Translations under genes and position numbers: made by a program
From: a virus
Taxonomy: Duplodnaviria; Heunggongvirae; Uroviricota; Caudoviricetes
Length of the DNA: 29,739 nt
Reading direction: 5' to 3' (one strand)
IMG/VR virus record: IMGVR_UViG_2531839666_000033
Coordinates: 1 to 29,739 of that record
Notes under the pieces: model-generated
Told to the model about the DNA's origin: nothing
Databases searched by the model: none
Seen by the model: only the letters and a program-made list of their open reading frames with translations
In this document: positions 694 to 25,039 of the stretch, piece after piece
Layout: every line of letters starts with the position of its first letter
Numbering within the stretch: position 1 is the first letter of the stretch

Positions 694-860
694 CGCCGGT
701 ACTGGATGAGAAACGGGGTACACCGTTCACACTGGTGAAATCTCCGGCATCGAGGGGCGCGGACAAACTGCAACTGACAGACATATCAAAGGCGACGACA
801 TATACGCTGCTTATTGACAGTGTGAAGGTGGAAGTGAACAACGCGGATGCCGCGGCATGA
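690..860 (+). CDS. 56-codon ORF overlapping the previous stop (GTGA); either a translationally coupled small gene or the frameshifted C-terminus of the upstream protein
   Basis: The -1 frame is open 666..860 with GTG at 690 and a protein-like translation (VTPVLDEKRGTPFTLVKSPASRGADKLQLTDISKATTYTLLIDSVKVEVNNADAAA). Below the 60-aa ORF-track cutoff. Confidence 0.3.
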   Translation: MTPVLDEKRGTPFTLVKSPASRGADKLQLTDISKATTYTLLIDSVKVEVNNADAAA

Positions 861-944
861 TAAAAAAGGCCGCCAGCAATGAAGGAAAGGGATGAACTTT
901 GTCCACTACATGAATGCTGGCGGCTGGTAAAACGACCATGATGA

Positions 945-967
945 CACCGAAGTCTTCGGTGTTTTTT
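945..967 (+). terminator. Rho-independent terminator (7-bp stem CACCGAA/TTCGGTG, 3-nt loop, T6 tail)
   Basis: Hairpin caccgaagtcttcggtg followed by tttttt, read directly from the sequence. Confidence 0.5.
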
Positions 968-1010
968 CACAAAAATAGTAAATCAATGTCAACTATCACG
1001 GTGGGAAACC

Positions 1011-1193
1011 ATGACATTTATGAACCAGTTAATGCTGTACTTCTGTACGGTGGTCTGTGTGCTGTATCTTCTTTCGGGTGGGTACAGGGCAGTGCGCGAT
1101 TGCTGGCGCAGGCAGATTGATAAAAGGGCCGCAGAGAAAATCAGCGCCAGTCAGTCAGCCGGAAGCAAACCCGAAGAGCCCATTACTCCTTAA
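1011..1193 (+). CDS. small single-pass membrane protein, hypothetical
   Basis: 60-aa ORF with a hydrophobic N-terminal segment (LMLYFCTVVCVLYLLSGG) and a charged C-terminal tail; GGTGGGA 5 nt upstream of the ATG. Confidence 0.35.
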   Translation: MTFMNQLMLYFCTVVCVLYLLSGGYRAVRDCWRRQIDKRAAEKISASQSAGSKPEEPITP

Positions 1194-1218
1194 TAACCCC
1201 TTTCAACGAGAAAATCCC

Positions 1219-1455
1219 ATGTCAGAAATTACATCCCTGGTCACTGCAGAGGCAGTGAAGGAAGTCCTGCGCTCTGAAGAAGTCCTGAGCGCACTGAAAC
1301 AGAAACTTCGCCATAACCTGGAAGCGCGTCTTGATGCAGAAGTGGATGCCATTCTGGATGAACTGCTGGGCGCACCGGCAGCTCCGGAGCCGGAAGGCAT
1401 CGCGGGTGAGGGGATGCTTCAGATAGCGGTGAACCCACACCTGACAGCGACATGA
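1219..1455 (+). CDS. hypothetical protein (78 aa, predicted helical and acidic)
   Basis: ORF from ATG 1219 (the track's 1057..1455 uses an upstream alternative start); weak RBS; lies directly upstream of the holin. Confidence 0.3.
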   Translation: MSEITSLVTAEAVKEVLRSEEVLSALKQKLRHNLEARLDAEVDAILDELLGAPAAPEPEGIAGEGMLQIAVNPHLTAT

Positions 1456-1536
1456 TGATGTAAGCATGCGCAGGGGCTGTCGGTGTGAGCTGATGCCCTC
1501 TGTTGTTGTGAGCTTCCGGATTGCGGGAGACGGGGT

Positions 1537-1752
1537 ATGTACCAGATGGAAAAAATCACAACAGGTGTGTCATACACCACGTCAGCGGTGGGAACGGGCT
1601 ACTGGTTCCTGCAGTTGCTGGACAGGGTTTCCCCGTCTCAGTGGGCGGCAATAGGCGTGCTGGGGAGTCTGCTGTTTGGGCTGCTGACATATCTGACGAA
1701 CCTGTATTTCAAAATCAGAGAGGACCGGCGTAAGGCGGCACGGGGAGATTAG
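1537..1752 (+). CDS. S: class II holin, phage 21 S21-like pinholin with dual-start motif (Met1 and Met4)
   Basis: 71 aa; two TMDs (a Gly/Ala/Ser-rich SAR-like TMD1, then [23 protein letters not shown]) and a charged C-terminus [13 protein letters not shown], resembling S21 as I recall it; followed by a SAR endolysin. Confidence 0.85.
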
Positions 1753-1755
1753 GTG

Positions 1756-2124
1756 ATGAACCATGAAGAAATGAATCAGCGCTTCAGTCGTCTGGAAAAT
1801 GAAATTGCTGAACTGAATAAAAAACTGTCGGTGCTGATGCCTTCTGAAGATGAAAAAAAACGCCGCGATGAGCAGTTTGCTGCGTTTGACGATTATTGTC
1901 GGAAAGTGATGAGCAGAAATCTCGCAGAGTGTTTCAGTATTCATAATGATAATTTCAGTGAGCTGGAATGGGAGTGTAACCGGCCATCCTTTGTTGTATC
2001 CGGTGATGGTGTGAAAATAACCATCTCAGAAAATGGGAAAGTAACACCTCCATCGCACCAGCACAGTGAGGAGCTCATTGAATTTGCCATTGATTACCTG
2101 AAGAACAATAAAAACAGGGGCTGA
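1756..2124 (+). CDS. hypothetical protein inserted between holin and endolysin (N-terminal coiled-coil-like region)
   Basis: 123-aa ORF (ATG 1756, GTG 1753 possible) starting right after the holin stop; positionally analogous to ydfR-type genes between essQ and rrrQ in the K-12 Qin prophage, but sequence identity was not verified. Confidence 0.5.
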   Translation: MNHEEMNQRFSRLENEIAELNKKLSVLMPSEDEKKRRDEQFAAFDDYCRKVMSRNLAECFSIHNDNFSELEWECNRPSFVVSGDGVKITISENGKVTPPSHQHSEELIEFAIDYLKNNKNRG

Positions 2125-2312
2125 TGCAGCGCATTGGTCGTTGCATGGGGTATCTGCAGGTAGCCGCTGAGATTGAAGCGCTGGCCAGTGGTGCGGACAA
2201 GGATTCAGTTGTGCGGGAGGCACTTCTTCGTGATTTTGATAATCCGCCCTTTAAAAAAGTGCCGGCTTACTGGCTTCATCCCGGACTGACTTATCTGAAA
2301 GTGCGTATTTAG
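2124..2312 (+). CDS. hypothetical small protein (62 aa), translationally coupled to the upstream ORF
   Basis: ATG overlaps the upstream TGA (cTGATGc); AGGGG RBS at 2115-2119. Confidence 0.4.
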   Translation: MQRIGRCMGYLQVAAEIEALASGADKDSVVREALLRDFDNPPFKKVPAYWLHPGLTYLKVRI

Positions 2313-2348
2313 TGGGCCTGGGACAGCGGCTGAATATTTAATATATCC

Positions 2349-2882
2349 ATGAACACAAAAATCAAATACGGCCTGTCGGCTGCCGTTCTGGCGTTGATTG
2401 CCGCAGGGGCTTCTGCGCCTGAAATCCTCGACCAGTTTCTGGATGAAAAAGAAGGTAACCACACCACGGCATACCGTGATGGCGCGGGTATCTGGACCAT
2501 CTGCCGTGGAGCCACCCGGGTGGATGGTAAGCCTGTTATTCCTGGCATGAAGCTGTCGAAGGGGAAATGCGACCAGGTTAACGCCATTGAGCGTGATAAA
2601 GCGCTGGCATGGGTGGAGAAAAACATCAGAGTGCCACTGACTGAACCCCAGAAAGCGGGTATTGCGTCATTCTGTCCTTACAACATTGGCCCCGGTAAGT
2701 GTTTCCCGTCGACGTTTTATAAACGAATTAATGCAGGCGATCGCAGGGGAGCGTGTGAAGCGATTCGCTGGTGGATTAAGGACGGTGGCAGAGACTGCCG
2801 TATCCGCTCAAATAATTGTTATGGTCAGGTATCCCGTCGTGACCAGGAGAGCGCGCTGGCGTGCTGGGGTATCGACAGATAA
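2349..2882 (+). CDS. R: SAR endolysin (T4 lysozyme-type, GH24; phage 21 R21-like) with N-terminal signal-anchor-release domain
   Basis: Gly/Ala-rich N-terminal TM (GLSAAVLALIAAGASA) followed by an E...D...T catalytic motif (EGNHTTAYRDGAGIWTICRG), typical of SAR lysozymes. Confidence 0.9.
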   Translation: MNTKIKYGLSAAVLALIAAGASAPEILDQFLDEKEGNHTTAYRDGAGIWTICRGATRVDGKPVIPGMKLSKGKCDQVNAIERDKALAWVEKNIRVPLTEPQKAGIASFCPYNIGPGKCFPSTFYKRINAGDRRGACEAIRWWIKDGGRDCRIRSNNCYGQVSRRDQESALACWGIDR

Positions 2883-2976
2883 GCAGAATATTTTGCTGAA
2901 AAATGACGTTGACTAACGCGGACGGATAACACGAAATCCTGCGAACTGGCAAAACCTAAGTGAATAAAAGTAAAAA

Positions 2977-3010
2977 CCCCGTTTGTTGGCAGCAAGCGGG
3001 GTTTTGTGTT
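2977..3010 (+). terminator. Rho-independent terminator downstream of the endolysin
   Basis: 9-bp stem CCCCGTTTG/CAAGCGGGG (one G-U pair), 7-nt loop, then TTTTGTGTTTCT. Confidence 0.6.
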
Positions 3011-3243
3011 TCTGACCTTGGATAAGGCAAGGGAGAACATGGAAAAGTATAAACGAATTCTGTTGAGGTTGACTATGAAAAACGGCCTTGAACTGAAAGC
3101 GCCAGAGTAACTGATGACATCAGCAGAGCGCTGGCTTTTGCTATTAAGTGGGTGGCGGTTGGTATCGCTGTGTCTCCGATACTGTATGGGCTGGCAAAAC
3201 TGGTCATTGCGTTGAAATCGTAAACGGGGATTAAGAGGTAATC

Positions 3244-3375
3244 ATGTCACGCAAACTCATAATGCTGGGGGAAATCCTCTGGGTCATTGTCTGCATTTCA
3301 TTTTCAGCAACGCTGATTGCTCTTCTTCTTTCTATGGCATGGATGACGTTGAATTCGGCAGGGCTGGTGGGGTGA
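3244..3375 (+). CDS. small hydrophobic membrane peptide (43 aa) inserted between endolysin and Rz
   Basis: ORF MSRKLIMLGEILWVIVCISFSATLIALLLSMAWMTLNSAGLVG with RBS AAGAGG 6 nt upstream of the ATG; below the ORF-track cutoff, found by manual translation. Confidence 0.35.
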   Translation: MSRKLIMLGEILWVIVCISFSATLIALLLSMAWMTLNSAGLVG

Positions 3376-3382
3376 CAACGAT

Positions 3383-3876
3383 ATGAACCGGGCACTGTGT
3401 GGCGTGATTATTGTCCTGCTGGTGGCCTGTGGTGCGCTGTGGCTGGCAACAGACCATTACCGCGATAATGCCATCACCTACAAAGCGCAGCGCGATAAAA
3501 AGCCAGCGAGCTGGAGCTGGCAAACGCAACCATTACTGACATGCAGCAGCGCCAGCGTGATGTTGCTGCGCTGGATGAAAAATACACAAAGGAATTAGCC
3601 GATGCGAGAGCTGAAAATGAAACTCTGCGCGCTGATGTTGCCGCTGGTCGTAAGCGCCTGCGGATCAACGCCACCTGCTCCGGTACCGTGCGTGAATCCA
3701 CCGGCACCGCCCGCGTGGATAATGCAACCGGCCCCCGACTGGCAGACACCGCTGAACGGGATTATTTCATCCTCAGAGAACGGTTGATGACAATGCAGAA
3801 GCAGCTGGAAGGGGCGCAGGAATATATCCGCACTCAGTGCACTAAGCTGGCTTTTTATTATCCGGAGGATACATGA
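3383..3876 (+). pseudogene. Rz: i-spanin Rz, reading frame disrupted by a 1-nt deletion in an A-run (A5 at 3497-3501)
   Basis: N-terminal ORF 3383..3598 (MNRALCGVIIVLLVACGALWLATDHYRDNAITYKAQRDKK) and ORF 3541..3876 (…QQRQRDVAALDEKYTKELADARAENETLRADVAAGRKRLRI…) together match lambda Rz; the frames join if one A is added at gataaaaag. Confidence 0.8.
3602..3787 (+). CDS. Rz1: o-spanin Rz1 lipoprotein, embedded in the +1 frame of Rz
   Basis: MRELKMKLCALMLPLVVSACGSTPPAPVPCVNPPAPPAWIMQPAPDWQTPLNGIISSSENG: lipobox VVSAC, proline-rich, resembles lambda Rz1. Confidence 0.8.
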   Translation: MRELKMKLCALMLPLVVSACGSTPPAPVPCVNPPAPPAWIMQPAPDWQTPLNGIISSSENG

Positions 3877-4097
3877 AGAAATTACTGGTAACCGTAAAGC
3901 CTTTTCAGGGAACAATTCCGTTCCGTATTTTGCAGCGTGGTCGTGTTCTTGTTGAAGGTTCGTTCAGTGGTAAATGTACGCAATTACACTCCCGGACCTT
4001 TCAGGTGAATGCCACGAATGAAGAGCTAACCGTTGAGTGTACGATGAATGCCGCTAAATGCCGCATGGTATCGGCTGCATTACAGCCAGTGTGTTGA
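3873..4097 (+). CDS. hypothetical protein (74 aa), translationally coupled to the Rz stop
   Basis: GGAGG RBS 5 nt upstream of ATG 3873; ATGA overlap with the Rz stop; not Bor-like. Confidence 0.45.
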   Translation: MKKLLVTVKPFQGTIPFRILQRGRVLVEGSFSGKCTQLHSRTFQVNATNEELTVECTMNAAKCRMVSAALQPVC

Positions 4098-4454
4098 GCG
4101 ACCTTATTATCCATGGCGCGGTATTGTCGCCGTATTCCCGCATTAACAGAGACCGCAGCCCGACAGGGAGACTCCTCTGCGCGAGTGTGTGGGGATAATC
4201 AAAAACGATACACACCGGGGTTTACCGCGTTAACGGAGCGCGGCGTTGTCCCCTCATGGTCGCTGGTCCGGTGCGATGGTGGAAGAAACCGGATATTTAC
4301 GATGTTTACCTGAGAATACGGGAAAGGATTCGTTGAGTTTCAGCACATTTTTGTATTCAGATAATTGAATATCAGTTTATTTTACTTTTAACATATTGAT
4401 AATAAAAAGGACTGTAATACCAGAGATAAGTTGAGTGTGTTCGGGGAACGACAA

Positions 4455-21169: not shown

Positions 21170-24100
21170 GTGGGTAAAGGGGGCGACAAGGGGCACACAC
21201 CGCGTGAGGCGAAGGACAATCTCAAATCCACGCAGATGATGAGCGTGATTGATGCCATTGGTGAGGGACCGGTGGAAGGTCCGGTGAAGGGACTGCAGAG
21301 TATTCTGGTGAACAAAACCCCGCTGACGGACACGGACGGTAATCCCGTGATACACGGTGTGACCGCCGTCTGGCGTGCCGGGGAGCAGGAGCAGACACCG
21401 CCGGAAGGCTTTGAGTCCTCCGGGGCGGAAACCGCACTGGGCGTGGAGGTGACGAAGGCAAAGCCGGTGACGCGCACCATCACGTCAGCGAACATTGACC
21501 GTCTGCGGGTCACCTTCGGGGTACAGTCACTGGTGGAGACCACCTCAAAGGGTGACCGTAATCCCTCTTCTGTCCGCCTGCTGATTCAGCTTGAGCGTAA
21601 CGGGCACTGGGTGACGGAGAAGGATGTCACCATTAACGGCAAGACCACCTCGCAGTATCTGACGTCGGTGATTCTGAATAATCTCCCTGAGCGCCCCTTT
21701 AACATCCGGATGGTCAGGGTGACGGCGGACAGCACCACGGACCAGCTGCAGAACAGAACGCTGTGGTCGTCATACACCGAAATCATCGATGTGAAACAGT
21801 GCTACCCGAACACGGCCATTGTGGGGCTGCAGGTGGATGCGGAGCAGTTTGGTGGCCAGCAGCTGACGGTGAACTACCATATCCGCGGTCGCATCATTCA
21901 GGTGCCGTCAAACTATGACCCGGAAAAACGCACCTACAGCGGTATCTGGGACGGGAGTCTGAAACCGGCATACAGCAATAACCCGGCCTGGTGCCTGTGG
22001 GACATGCTGACCCACCCGCGCTACGGGATGGGAAAACGCCTGGGGGCCGCGGATGTGGACAAGTGGGCACTGTATGCCATCGGGCAGTACTGCGACCAGA
22101 CGGTCCCGGATGGTTTCGGGGGCACAGAGCCGCGGATGACCTTTAATGCGTACCTGTCACAGCAGCGTAAGGTGTGGGATGTCCTGGGGGATTTCTGCTC
22201 GGCGATGCGCTGTATGCCGGTATGGAACGGCCAGACGCTGACGTTCGTTCAGGACCGCCCGTCGGATGTGGTGTGGCCGTACACCAACAGCGATGTGGTG
22301 GTGGATGATAACGGCGTGGGGTTCCGCTACAGCTTCAGTGCCCTGAAGGACCGGCACACGGCGGTGGAGGTGAATTACACCGACCCGCAGAACGGCTGGC
22401 AGACTTCCACGGAACTGGTGGAAGACCCGGACGCCATCCTGCGCTACGGGCGCAATCTGCTGAAGATGGATGCGTTTGGCTGTACCAGCCGCGGTCAGGC
22501 CCACCGTGCCGGACTGTGGGTGATAAAGACAGAACTGCTGGAAACGCAGACGGTGGATTTCACGCTCGGGTCACAGGGGCTGCGGCACACGCCCGGTGAC
22601 ATTATTGAAATCTGTGATAACGACTACGCAGGGACCCTGACCGGCGGACGCATCCTGTCCATCGATGCCGCCAGCCGTACCCTGACGCTGGACCGTGAGG
22701 TGACACTGCCGGAAGCAGGGACATCGACGGTGAACCTGATTAACGGCAGCGGTAAGCCGGTGCGCGTGGACATCACTGCACACCCCGCCCCGGACCGGAT
22801 ACAGGTCAGTACCCTGCCTGATGGTGTGGAGACATACGGGGTGTGGGGACTCTCCCTGCCGTCACTGCGCCGTCGCCTGTTCCGCTGTGTCTCCATCCGG
22901 GAAAACACGGACGGCACCTTTGCCATCACGGCAGTGCAGCACGTACCGGAAAAAGAAGCCATCGTGGATAACGGGGCCCGCTTTGAGCCGCTCTCCGGCT
23001 CACTGAACAGCGTCATCCCGCCGGCAGTGCAGCACCTCACGGTGGAGGTGAGTGCCTCAGACGGCCAGTATCTGGCGCTGGCGAAATGGGACACGCCGCG
23101 GGTGGTGAAGGGCGTGCGCTTCAGTCTGCGCCTGACCAGTGGCAGTGGTGAAAACAGCCGCCTGGTGACCACCGCCATCACTGCCGACACGGAGCACCGT
23201 TTCAGTGGCCTGCCTCTGGGGGAATACACCCTGACGGTCAGGGCGATAAACAGCTACGGCCAGCAGGGCGAACCTGCCACCACCGCGTTCCGGATTAATG
23301 CGCCTGCAGCACCGGCCAGCATTGAGCTGACGCCGGGGTATTATCAGATAACAGCAGTACCGGTGCTGGCGGTGTATGACCCGACGGTACAGTCTGAATT
23401 CTGGTTCTCAGAAAAACGCATCACGGACATGGCACAGGTGGAAACCTTTGCCCGTTATCTGGGGACAGGCAGCCAGTGGAGTGTCTCCGGCCCGCACATT
23501 AAGCCGGGGAAGGATTTCTGGTTTTATGTGCGCAGCGTCAATCTGGTGGGGAAATCTGCGTTTGTGGAAGCCAGTGGCCGGGCGAGCAATGATGCGGAAG
23601 GGTATCTGGACTTTTTCAGAGGAGAAATCGGGAAGACACATCTGGCACAGGGGATGTGGGAGCTGATTGATAACAGCCAGCTTGATGATGAGATGGCGGA
23701 GATGAAGACCACCATCACAGAAACCCGCAATGAAATCACACAGACGGTCAGTAAAACCCTGGAAGACCAGAGTGCCACCATACAGCAGATACAGCGGGTG
23801 CAGACAGACACAAATAACGACCTGGCTGCGCTGTACATGCTGAAGGTACAGAAAACGAAAACGGCATTCCGTATGTTGCCGGTATAGGTGCGGGGATTGA
23901 GGATGCTGATGGCCAGCCCCTGAGCAATATTCTGCTGCAGGCGGACCGTATCGCGATGATTAACCCGGAGAACGGCAACACCACGCCGCTGTTTGTGGCG
24001 CAGGGGAATCAGCTGTTCATGAACGATGTGTTCCTGAAGCGGTTGTTTGCAGTGAGCATCACCTCGTCCGGCAATCCCCCGACGTTCTCCCTGACGCCGG

Positions 24101-24636
24101 AGGGCAGGCTGACGGCCCGCAATGCGGACATCAGCGGACATATCAGTGCGAACTCGGGCACGCTCAATAATGTCGTGATAGCGGAGAACTGTACGATAAA
24201 TGGCACGCTGAAAGCGGAGAACATTATTGGTGATCTTGTGAAATGTGCAGGGGTGGCTTTTCCGGTGGATGGTAGTTACCTTGCGAACGGTACACGAACG
24301 CTGACGGTGTATGACGATCACAGCTTTGACCGGCAGATTATAATCCCGCCGATAATCTATGTCGGGTCAAAACAGGAATCCCGTACCAGTAATGACATCT
24401 GGACAGAGTGCTTCCTGCATGTTGATCAGAACGGACGCCGGATTTATTCCGGCAGGTCAGTGACAGAGCCGGGAATTTTCAGCGGGATCATCGATATGCC
24501 AGCCGGTCATGGTCATATCACCCTGAGTTTTACCGTAAGTTCACGACGTCAGAACGGGAGTTTTGGCAGTTCACGTATCAGTAACCTTCAGGCGATAGTG
24601 GTGAAGAAAAACAGCGCGGGGATCAGCATCCGCTGA
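21170..24636 (+). pseudogene. J: tail tip / host-specificity protein (lambda gpJ-like), frame disrupted by a 1-nt deletion in an A-run (A4 at 23858-23861)
   Basis: ORF 21170..23887 matches lambda J over about 890 aa ([20 protein letters not shown]…, [35 protein letters not shown]); the conserved C-terminus (…[25 protein letters not shown]…NADISG…) continues in ORF 23956..24636; one extra A in acgaaaaCgg joins the frames. Confidence 0.9.
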
Positions 24637-25039
24637 ACATCGCGCCCCGGGATTGCCGGAAGGAGACAAAAACCGTACAGTATGCGCGGGTGCCTTTGGC
24701 TGATGGCCGGAGGGAACACCTGAAGGCCGGAAAGACGAAGGCCCCGGACAAACATTCATGTTTAACCCGAGGCCTGACTTTCGATCTTCAGCAAATTGAA
24801 GGTTAGCGCCTCTCCGTAAAAGGAGCAAGCGTTTATGTCGCAAAACCGTTAAAAACCACCGTGATTTGTATCACGGTAGTGCTCATTATCTGGATCACCC
24901 ACAGTTCACTGTGCGAGTTCCGGTTCCGGATAGCGGGCGCGGAGATTGCGGCGTTCTTACAGTGTAAGCAGTAAGAAACCGTGGCGGGGGAGAATATCCC
25001 CCGCCGACCGGTTGCTGAGGGTGGTCAGCCGGATGGCAC

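What the first reader, a model, noticed from the sequence alone, without database searches (positions are those of the whole stretch)
3011..3382. Small membrane-peptide ORFs inserted between endolysin and Rz
About 370 bp separate the endolysin terminator from Rz. The stretch holds a 23-codon ORF with a good RBS (3039-3110), a possible 24-codon hydrophobic GTG ORF (3152-3223) and a 43-codon single-TM peptide with RBS AAGAGG (3244-3375) ending 8 nt before Rz. Small hydrophobic peptides in a lysis cassette could be lysis modulators or toxin-like peptides.
Basis: seen in the sequence. Interest (0 to 1): 0.45.

Follow-up and report, generated by a model that had tools for sequence, protein, structure and literature searches.

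The report
Two small membrane genes before Rz
The gap between the endolysin and Rz genes of this prophage holds two conserved but unstudied tiny membrane-protein genes, not three; one is broken here by a 2-base duplication, and the other also sits unannotated in front of Rz in most Shiga-toxin phages.

Summary
The three ORFs are at the stated coordinates, but they are two genes. ORF1 (3039-3110) and ORF2 (3152-3223) are the halves of one 60-codon gene (PHROG 1115). It is intact in about 94% of related prophages and split here by an AG duplication at 3104-3107. It encodes a protein anchored in the membrane by its C-terminal helix and is under purifying selection (dN/dS 0.08-0.19).

ORF3 (3244-3375, PHROG 4906) is intact. 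It keeps 43-44 codons in about 95% of 114 loci and in 276 phage genomes, including 933W, where it is unannotated. Its sequence is only weakly constrained.

Neither gene has a promoter-like site of its own. Both lie behind a conserved two-way terminator (2973-3005). Each ORF's end carries the ribosome-binding site of the next gene, down to Rz. The 60-codon gene follows five endolysin types, usually just before Rz.

Codons 3-18 of the 60-codon gene show almost no synonymous variation. They contain a conserved minus-strand promoter-like site (TATACT in 35 of 37). This could give an antisense RNA of about 80 nt over the gene's ribosome-binding site.

Function is unknown. My best guess is that they are late accessory membrane proteins of the lysis module. 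Rz is also frameshifted here. The finding is ordinary for this window but a fair lead for lysis biology.

The parts
2883..2972 (+). Conserved ~90-nt segment 3' of the endolysin stop (GCAGAATATTTTGCTGAAAAATGA...GGATAACACGAAATCC...). It belongs to the endolysin module.
   Evidence: Conserved in E. coli and in Salmonella L010/L012. Kept in 933W, where the terminator and 60-codon gene are replaced by ant. No Rfam match.
2973..3012 (.). Two-way intrinsic terminator: hairpin 2973-3005, A-run on the 5' side, T-run on the 3' side.
   Evidence: 15 pairs. Present in all class-A relatives, with an invariant outer stem and a differently rebuilt inner stem. The RNAalifold count shows 1 of 20 pairs with a change on both sides.
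3039..3110 (+). N-terminal fragment (23 codons plus a premature TAA) of the 60-codon gene, PHROG 1115.
   Evidence: The restored protein hits phrog_1115 at E 1.4e-42.
3104..3107 (+). AGAG: a 2-bp (AG) tandem duplication that frameshifts the 60-codon gene.
   Evidence: Alignments. The same allele occurs in the independent contig L065, which is about 94-95% identical over three aligned segments.
3092..3223 (+). C-terminal part of the 60-codon gene, now out of frame. It encodes VTDDISRALAFAIKWVAVGIAVSPILYGLAKLVIALKS (the TM anchor).
   Evidence: invariant F33 A34 I35 K36 W37 A39 V40 G41 S45 L48 Y49 G50.... Codon-position diversity .120/.009/.232.
3046..3075 (-). Promoter-like site on the minus strand inside codons 3-13: -35 TAGTCA (3075-3070), 18-nt spacer, -10 TATACT (3051-3046).
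   Evidence: Flagged independently at the homologous place in L010, L013 and L024. The -10 is TATACT in 35 of 37 unique sequences and TATAAT in 2. Expression has not been shown.
2960..3040 (-). Hypothetical antisense RNA of about 80 nt. It would start near the gene's start codon, cover its ribosome-binding site, form a 5' hairpin (CCUUG/CAAGG, 3017-3033) and end at the shared terminator.
   Evidence: Inference from the promoter-like site plus the terminator. Fold -20.3 kcal/mol, z -2.95. Variation in the 5' hairpin falls almost entirely in its loop.
3244..3375 (+). ORF3: intact 43-codon single-TM gene (PHROG 4906), SD AAGAGG at 3233-3238. Its last codons (GGGGTGA, 3369-3375) form the ribosome-binding site of Rz.
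   Evidence: E 1.6e-12; identical protein in E. coli, 73 contigs.
3383..3876 (+). Rz (i-spanin) pseudogene: a 1-nt deletion in the A-run at 3497-3501 splits it into 71-aa and 111-aa pieces.
   Evidence: PF03245.
3602..3787 (+). Rz1 (o-spanin lipoprotein), embedded in Rz and intact.
   Evidence: PF06085, E 5e-21.
2349..2882 (+). Endolysin of the phage lysozyme family. The N-terminus looks like a SAR (signal-anchor-release) domain, judged by eye only.
   Evidence: PF00959, E 3e-24.

Best explanation
SHOWN. The stretch holds two genes. (1) A 60-codon gene for a small inner-membrane protein with a basic N-terminal half and one C-terminal TM helix (AFAIKWVAVGIAVSPxLYGLAKLIIALKS). In this window an AG duplication has killed it. 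(2) An intact 43-codon single-TM gene.

INFERRED MECHANISM. Both are late genes of the lysis operon. No sense-strand promoter-like site lies near them, and they sit behind a strong terminator. They would therefore be made only when Q-modified RNA polymerase reads through from pR'. Each ORF's 3' end carries the ribosome-binding site of the next gene (ORF3 ends in GGGGTGA, 7 nt before the Rz ATG). They would thus be translated in a chain with the spanin Rz/Rz1. I take them to be dispensable accessory membrane components that tune the membrane steps of lysis (holin or spanin stage).

In addition, a conserved minus-strand promoter-like site inside codons 3-13 of the 60-codon gene, facing the two-way terminator, may make an antisense RNA of about 80 nt. 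This RNA would cover the gene's ribosome-binding site and keep it silent in the lysogen.

In this window the 60-codon gene and Rz are both frameshifted, so the cassette is decaying.
For: ONE GENE, SPLIT.. The frameshift allele is also in the independent contig L065.

REAL GENE. dN/dS is 0.08-0.19 at dS 0.6-1.1 between the E. coli and Salmonella copies. Codon-position diversity in codons 33-60 is .120/.009/.232. The terminal Ser changes codon from TCG to AGT. About 94% of class-A loci are intact.

ORF3. It is 43-44 codons long in about 95% of 114 loci and full length in 276 phage genomes, including 933W. dN/dS is 0.13-0.36 at dS of 0.9 or more.

LYSIS LINKAGE. The 60-codon gene follows PF00959, GH19, GH108, M15_4 and one unknown endolysin. 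Rz follows directly, or after ORF3, in the window, L001, L002, L010-L012, L017, L019 and L024. The GH108 and M15_4 loci have no intact Rz.

NO OWN PROMOTER. The scan of 2300-4200 found no plus-strand site, and only 26 nt separate the T-run of the terminator from the ATG.

COUPLING. The GGGGTGA ending is invariant in aligned copies, with one GGGGTAA variant among 26 unique sequences.

ANTISENSE ELEMENT. Third-position diversity is 0.051 in codons 3-18 against 0.233 in codons 20-60 (Mann-Whitney p 8e-5). Four of five divergent pairs give Fisher p of 2e-5 to 4e-3; the fifth gives 0.09. The -10 is TATACT or TATAAT in 37 of 37 unique sequences. A promoter-like site was found at the homologous place in four divergent loci.
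Against: There are no expression, localisation or phenotype data of any kind. There is no match to holin, antiholin, spanin or defence families.

The genes are absent from K-12 Qin. From my own knowledge they are also absent from lambda. Lysis therefore does not need them.

A few homologues sit outside lysis cassettes, after tail-fibre genes or at a prophage end. Two lysis-cassette loci (L023, L026) have the pair but no intact Rz.

Class-B cassettes (43 of 142 loci) keep only the TM half and so lack the antisense promoter-like site.

The low synonymous variation covers the spacer and flanks too, not only the two hexamers. Other explanations fit as well: a conserved internal start (GAGG-N6-ATG at Met13, giving the 48-aa form many annotators call), or frequent recombination in a linker sequence.

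ORF3's codon signature is weak (.145/.105/.163). Between the window type and the other types its dN/dS is about 1.
Confidence: 0.45

Rival explanations
1. Type I toxin-antitoxin-like module. The 60-aa tail-anchored peptide is a membrane toxin. The minus-strand RNA is its antitoxin, blocking its ribosome-binding site. The module would stabilise the prophage or abort infection.
For: The protein is a small hydrophobic one of 60 aa or fewer. A conserved antisense promoter-like site and a shared terminator are present. Synonymous variation is suppressed exactly over the putative promoter. The predicted RNA has an sRNA-like shape. Homologues also occur as stand-alone units outside lysis cassettes.
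Against: No sense-strand promoter-like site and no long structured 5' UTR precede the gene. The gene lies directly behind a terminator, so a lysogen should not transcribe it. There is no match to any Rfam or Pfam type I family. Class-B cassettes carry the TM half without the antisense element. The window's genuine hok/sok locus (24688-24974) is built differently.
Confidence: 0.17
2. ORF3 is mainly a translational-coupling leader for Rz, and the tiny ORFs in general serve as a coupling chain. What matters is an open frame ending at the Rz ribosome-binding site, not the peptide.
For: Length and stop position are conserved, while the C-terminal third evolves freely (diversity .261/.154/.218). dN/dS is about 1 between lineages. 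The stop lies inside the conserved GGGGTGA just upstream of the next start. In class B four tiny ORFs are chained in the same way.
Against: The N-terminal 28 codons stay hydrophobic and are better conserved. dN/dS is 0.13-0.36 in deep comparisons. K-12 Qin expresses Rz without such a leader. Four loci with a frameshifted C-terminus still end near the same place, so this test is weak either way.
Confidence: 0.18
3. Lysogenic-conversion morons. The small inner-membrane proteins are expressed from the prophage and act, for example, in superinfection exclusion.
For: The R-Rz slot is a known insertion site; ant occupies it in 933W. Some homologues sit at classic moron sites after tail-fibre genes, flanked by terminators.
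Against: No sense-strand promoter-like site was found and a terminator lies upstream. There is no PADLOC hit. The tight chaining to Rz argues for late expression.
Confidence: 0.1
4. Functionless passengers: short ORFs kept only by linkage to Rz and by recent spread.
For: Both genes can be lost or broken without obvious cost (the window itself; L065; 4 frameshifted ORF3 copies). They are restricted to Escherichia and Salmonella.
Against: The TM half of the 60-codon gene is under strong purifying selection across dS of about 1. ORF3 stays open in about 95% of loci and in 276 of 276 phage hits.
Confidence: 0.1

Closest known systems
PHROG 1115 (with related PHROGs 4493 and 3246), phage proteins of unknown function
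   Same: The restored 60-aa protein matches phrog_1115 end to end (E 1.4e-42). It also matches 4493 (E 5e-30) and, over the TM half, 3246 (E 3e-19). The 28-aa and 57-aa relatives fall in 4493.
   Different: The window copy is frameshifted. The family has no assigned function, so membership explains nothing about mechanism.
PHROG 4906, unknown function
   Same: ORF3 matches it (E 1.6e-12). An identical protein is deposited as an E. coli hypothetical protein.
   Different: No function is known. The ORF is unannotated in most Stx phage records.
ant moron between R and Rz in Stx phages (933W, Sakai)
   Same: It occupies the same insertion slot. In 933W, ant replaces the terminator and 60-codon gene while the ORF3-like gene stays in front of Rz.
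   Different: ant is a 189-aa soluble protein annotated as a putative antirepressor and is unrelated in sequence.
hok/sok type I toxin-antitoxin
   Same: It pairs a small hydrophobic peptide with a cis-antisense RNA. A real copy lies in this same window (sok at 24688-24837, Hok-like ORF at 24861-24974).
   Different: From general knowledge, hok has its own promoter, a long folded mRNA and a mok leader. None of these is seen here, and there is no Rfam or Pfam match.
Convergent prophage sRNA pairs at the pR' moron site (AgvB, AsxR; Tree et al. 2014, PMC4104026)
   Same: Short prophage RNAs facing each other across a shared terminator in lambdoid late regions. The architecture proposed here is similar.
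   Different: Those lie downstream of pR', upstream of the lysis genes. There is no sequence or Rfam match here, and the RNA proposed here is hypothetical.
Dual-start holin/antiholin pairs (lambda S105/S107, S21 68/71); from my own knowledge
   Same: A membrane protein of the lysis cassette with two candidate in-frame starts (Met1, and Met13 preceded by GAGG).
   Different: There is no holin family match. The TM helix is C-terminal, there is no charged C-terminal tail, and the two starts lie 12 codons apart.

Membership tests
PHROG 1115 | Full-length match to the family profile | tested here: met
   E 1.4e-42 over residues 1-60 for the intact relative that differs from the window by the AG duplication.
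PHROG 1115 | Intact reading frame in this window | tested here: not met
   The AG duplication at 3104-3107 creates TAA at 3108-3110.
PHROG 4906 | Match to the family profile and an intact ORF | tested here: met
   E 1.6e-12 over residues 2-43. The ORF is intact.
Type I toxin-antitoxin | Small hydrophobic toxin peptide | tested here: met
   60 aa with one TM helix near the C-terminus and a net +4 N-terminal flank. This holds for the family; the window copy is broken.
Type I toxin-antitoxin | Antisense RNA gene overlapping the toxin mRNA | tested here: inconclusive
   A conserved promoter-like site plus a shared terminator. There are no expression data.
Type I toxin-antitoxin | Toxin gene with its own promoter and a structured 5' UTR | tested here: not met
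   No plus-strand promoter-like site. Only 26 nt separate the terminator's T-run from the ATG. The mRNA fold is not unusual (z -1.1).
Type I toxin-antitoxin | Toxicity on overexpression, neutralised by the RNA | not testable with these tools
   Needs an experiment.
Holin/antiholin | Match to a holin family | tested here: not met
   No Pfam or PHROG holin hit for either protein. The window's own holin is at 1537-1752 (PF04971).
Holin/antiholin | TM protein encoded in the lysis cassette | tested here: met
   The position between endolysin and Rz is seen in many cassette types.
Spanin (i-, o- or u-type) | Periplasmic domain behind an N-terminal TM helix, or a lipobox | tested here: not met
   The 60-aa protein has only 2-4 residues beyond its TM helix, ORF3 has about 14, and neither has a lipobox. 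ORF3 shows no similarity to the Rz N-terminus.
Moron (own promoter plus terminator) | Sense-strand promoter directly upstream | tested here: not met
   One search found none. This is a consensus scan only, so weak or non-sigma-70 promoters are not excluded.

The most novel reading that the evidence does not exclude
The endolysin-Rz slot of Escherichia and Salmonella lambdoid phages holds a recombining set of one to four micro membrane proteins of 28-60 aa. They include a superfamily with an AFAI(K/R) helix and the 43-aa ORF present in most Stx phages. Together they would form an unrecognised class of lysis regulators acting on the spanin or holin step. One of them would be kept silent in lysogens by a dedicated antisense sRNA that shares a two-way terminator.
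Probability: 0.15. Interest if true: 0.65.

Novelty: new member of a known kind. Interest (0 to 1): 0.38.

Why it matters
Lambdoid lysis is usually described as complete with holin, endolysin and spanin. Yet a 43-codon membrane ORF sits directly in front of Rz in 276 sequenced phages, most of them Shiga-toxin phages, and is usually unannotated. A 60-codon partner gene under clear purifying selection occurs in up to a third of complete E. coli genomes.

If these proteins tune lysis timing or spanin activity, they would affect phage burst and Shiga-toxin release. If the antisense RNA is real, it would add a prophage sRNA at a new conserved position.

For this particular window the result is modest. 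One gene is dead, its neighbour Rz is dead too, and the third ORF is an ordinary copy.

Tried and rejected
RFAM. Gathering and permissive E-value searches found nothing credible in 2700-3500.

KNOWN PROPHAGE sRNAs. PasA-D lie between the esterase and holin genes or among structural genes, and AgvB/AsxR lie at the pR' moron site. None is in the R-Rz gap.

K-12 QIN. There is no insert; rrrQ overlaps rzpQ.

SPECIES-REPRESENTATIVE GENOMES. Both genome-contig scans gave only chance hits.

ORF3 AS A DECAYED COPY OF THE Rz 5' END. No similarity above shuffled controls.

mRNA STRUCTURE. This cannot explain the conserved 5' block or ORF3: z -1.1 and +0.15.

LONG-RANGE PAIRING. The upstream AACACGAAAUCC can pair with the 3' arm of the terminator. 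The pairing is only partly conserved in Salmonella and I did not pursue it.

OTHER LIBRARIES. No hits in NCBIfam, PADLOC or PDB sequence searches.

LITERATURE. Peptide strings matched no paper and none of the supplements of the EDL933 ribosome-profiling paper. EDL933 record NC_002655 is not in the collection.

NOT RUN. Structure prediction, because single helices give uninformative fold matches.

Full report
CONTEXT

The window is a lambdoid prophage late region with a phage-21-type lysis cassette. In order it holds:
- the tail of a DUF6645 esterase-type gene (73-693), then DUF1378 (1011-1193) and DUF826;
- the S21-type holin (1537-1752, PF04971);
- two ORFs that together match phrog_1085 (1753-2312);
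- a phage-lysozyme endolysin (2349-2882, PF00959);
- the stretch in question;
- Rz (3383-3876, PF03245) with embedded Rz1 (3602-3787, PF06085);
- a 74-aa ORF, a DUF3950 gene on the minus strand, and terminase Nu1/A from 5302.

No complete E. coli genome is closer than 94% over 2850-3420. At least 80% of that stretch is present in 990 of 5426 complete genomes, and some part of it in 2082, with up to 10 copies per genome.

CHECKING THE OBSERVATION

The window reads GCGCCAGAGTAAC where relatives read GCGCC(A/T)GTAAC. This AG duplication at 3104-3107 shifts the frame and creates TAA at 3108-3110.

ORF1 is therefore the first 22 codons plus one wrong codon. ORF2 is the last 23 codons of the same gene, read from an internal GTG with no usable ribosome-binding site. 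The same broken allele occurs in an independent IMG/VR contig (L065, about 94-95% identical over three aligned segments), so it is not a read error of this window.

Rz is also broken, by a 1-nt deletion in the A-run at 3497-3501. The cassette is decaying.

THE 60-CODON GENE

The restored protein is MEKYKRILLRLTMKNGLELKAPVTDDISRALAFAIKWVAVGIAVSPMLYGLAKLVIALKS. It matches phrog_1115 (E 1.4e-42), which has no known function. It matches nothing in Pfam, NCBIfam, PADLOC or the PDB.

Protein searches of 5.8 billion sequences found 121 clusters with the single sequence and 312 with a profile. Essentially all are from Escherichia and Salmonella, and all are unnamed.

The conserved core is the C-terminal TM helix. 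The N-terminal flank has 8 Lys/Arg (net +4) and only about 4 residues (ALKS) follow the hydrophobic core. This suggests a tail-anchored protein with its N-terminus in the cytoplasm.

It is a real gene:
- E. coli versus Salmonella copies give dN/dS of 0.08-0.19 at dS of 0.6-1.1.
- In 37 unique sequences, codons 33-60 show diversity of .120/.009/.232 at codon positions 1/2/3.
- The final Ser switches codon between TCG and AGT.
- About 94% of full-length loci are intact.

ORF3

The window's 43-aa protein is identical to a deposited E. coli hypothetical protein and matches phrog_4906.

Of 142 loci fetched through the first gene's core, 114 carry ORF3. About 95% of these keep 43-44 codons. Four share an 11-bp deletion that changes the C-terminus, and one is fused to the other gene.

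A tblastn search finds it full length in 276 phage genomes, mostly Stx-converting and usually unannotated. In 933W it lies between ant and Rz and ends 7 nt before the Rz ATG.

Constraint on the sequence is weak. dN/dS is 0.13-0.36 for deep pairs but about 1 between the window's type and the others. The codon-position signature is faint. Its last codons, GGGGTGA, are nearly invariant and form the ribosome-binding site of the next gene.

CONTEXT ELSEWHERE

The 60-codon gene follows at least five endolysin types: PF00959 lysozyme, GH19, GH108, M15_4 peptidase, and an unknown 138-aa protein. It occurs with several holin types in E. coli, E. marmotae and Salmonella. Where an intact Rz is present, the gene lies directly before it or before ORF3-Rz. 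In the two loci checked from the GH108 and M15_4 cassettes (L023, L026), no intact Rz follows. The gene thus travels with the Rz side of the cassette rather than with the endolysin.

A few homologues lie after tail-fibre genes or at a prophage end.

In a second cassette class (43 of 142 loci, for example EC958) the slot holds four tiny hydrophobic ORFs in a chain:
- a 31-aa peptide (phrog_6632);
- ORF3;
- the TM half only of the 60-codon gene;
- a 28-aa paralogue, MSAELIRAMAFAIRIVAIAVLVWAIRWW (phrog_4493).

In Stx phages, ant replaces the terminator and 60-codon gene. K-12 Qin has nothing in the slot. The slot is therefore a mosaic hot spot stocked with micro membrane proteins.

EXPRESSION LOGIC (INFERRED)

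No plus-strand promoter-like site lies between the endolysin and Rz. The terminator's T-run ends 26 nt before the ATG. Transcription should therefore depend on terminator-resistant late transcription from pR'. This rests on established knowledge of Q antitermination in lambdoid phages; pR' and Q lie outside the window.

The terminator is conserved. Its CCCCG/CGGGG outer stem is invariant, and its inner stem and loop are rebuilt with different sequences in different lineages. The formal RNAalifold count on the ten-sequence alignment finds only 1 of 20 pairs with a change on both sides, partly because indels blur the inner stem. The terminator has an A-run on one side and a T-run on the other, so it should work in both directions.

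A POSSIBLE ANTISENSE RNA

Codons 3-18 of the 60-codon gene behave differently from the rest.
- Third-position diversity is 0.051 there against 0.233 in codons 20-60 (Mann-Whitney p 8e-5).
- There is no codon periodicity there.
- Four of five divergent pairs give Fisher p between 2e-5 and 4e-3; the fifth gives 0.09.

The only promoter-like site in the region lies exactly here, on the minus strand: TAGTCA, 18 nt, TATACT at 3075-3046. The scan flags the homologous site independently in Salmonella L010 and in L024 (TTGTCA, 10 of 12 matches). It also flags it in the divergent tail-end copy L013, which has a different -35 and a 16-nt spacer. Across 37 unique sequences the -10 is TATACT in 35 and TATAAT in 2.

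A transcript from this site would start near the start codon, run antisense over the ribosome-binding site, form a 5' hairpin whose variation falls almost entirely in its loop, and stop at the shared terminator. It would be about 80 nt, with a fold of -20.3 kcal/mol and z -2.95.

This is a hypothesis only. The conservation also covers the spacer and flanks. It could instead reflect the conserved internal start (GAGG-N6-ATG at Met13, giving the 48-aa form many annotators call) or homogenisation by recombination at a module boundary.

VERDICT

The anatomy is secure. The function is not. I commit to late-expressed accessory membrane proteins of the lysis module that are translationally chained to Rz, at about 0.45. 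The rivals are:
- a type I toxin-antitoxin-like module (about 0.17);
- a translational-coupling leader for Rz (about 0.18);
- lysogenic-conversion morons (about 0.1);
- functionless passengers (about 0.1).

Both proteins belong to existing PHROG families of unknown function, so this is a new member of a known, uncharacterised kind. Interest is moderate: ordinary for this window, but a fair lead for phage-lysis work.

Noticed in passing
window 24688-24974: A hok/sok-type type I toxin-antitoxin locus downstream of a 226-aa ORF (23956-24636) that I did not identify. Rfam sok scores 63.2 bits (gathering score 59) at 24688-24837. A Hok-like ORF follows at 24861-24974 (MICITVVLIIWITHSSLCEFRFRIAGAEIAAFLQCKQ).
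   Followed up: partly
window 3383-3876 (A-run 3497-3501): Rz carries a 1-nt deletion in an A-run that splits it into 71-aa and 111-aa pieces, while the embedded Rz1 stays intact. Together with the broken 60-codon gene, this points to a decaying lysis cassette.
   Followed up: yes
window 1753-2312: Two abutting ORFs (123 aa and 62 aa) between holin and endolysin both match one family, phrog_1085 (profile positions 117-233 and 235-296). In relative L001 the same region is annotated as a frameshifted pseudogene. An insert of unknown function sits inside the cassette.
   Followed up: partly
L020 (E. coli EC958) 1118-1563; also L004: A second cassette class has four chained tiny hydrophobic ORFs between endolysin and Rz: 31 aa, 43 aa, the TM half of the 60-codon gene, and a 28-aa paralogue ending RWW. 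In L004 a 1-nt insertion fuses ORF3 to the TM half, giving an 83-aa protein.
   Followed up: partly
L030 (phage phiSTEC1575-Stx2k) 1474-1831: This complete Stx2k phage genome has no annotated Rz between endolysin and terminase. After an M15 endolysin it carries a 57-aa relative of the 60-codon gene, followed 1 nt later by a 60-aa predicted lipoprotein (LLVGC lipobox, phrog_7528). This may be an unusual outer-membrane-disruption pair.
   Followed up: no
window 2883-2972 with 2990-3012: The conserved segment after the endolysin stop (AACACGAAAUCC) can pair with the 3' arm and U-tail of the terminator in the minimum-energy fold, like an anti-terminator. In Salmonella the segment is instead locked in its own 7-bp hairpin. 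The meaning is unclear.
   Followed up: partly
window 3873-4097: A 74-aa ORF directly after Rz. In lambda, from my own knowledge, bor occupies this position. The ORF matches only part of phrog_2571 (profile positions 100-172 of 291). It recurs after Rz in many relatives, and in L026 where Rz is absent.
   Followed up: no
window 700-1540: The PasA/PasC prophage sRNAs described by Zhu, Shabalina and Storz (bioRxiv 10.64898/2026.05.13.724894) lie between the esterase and holin genes. The window has that interval, but I did not search it for them.
   Followed up: no
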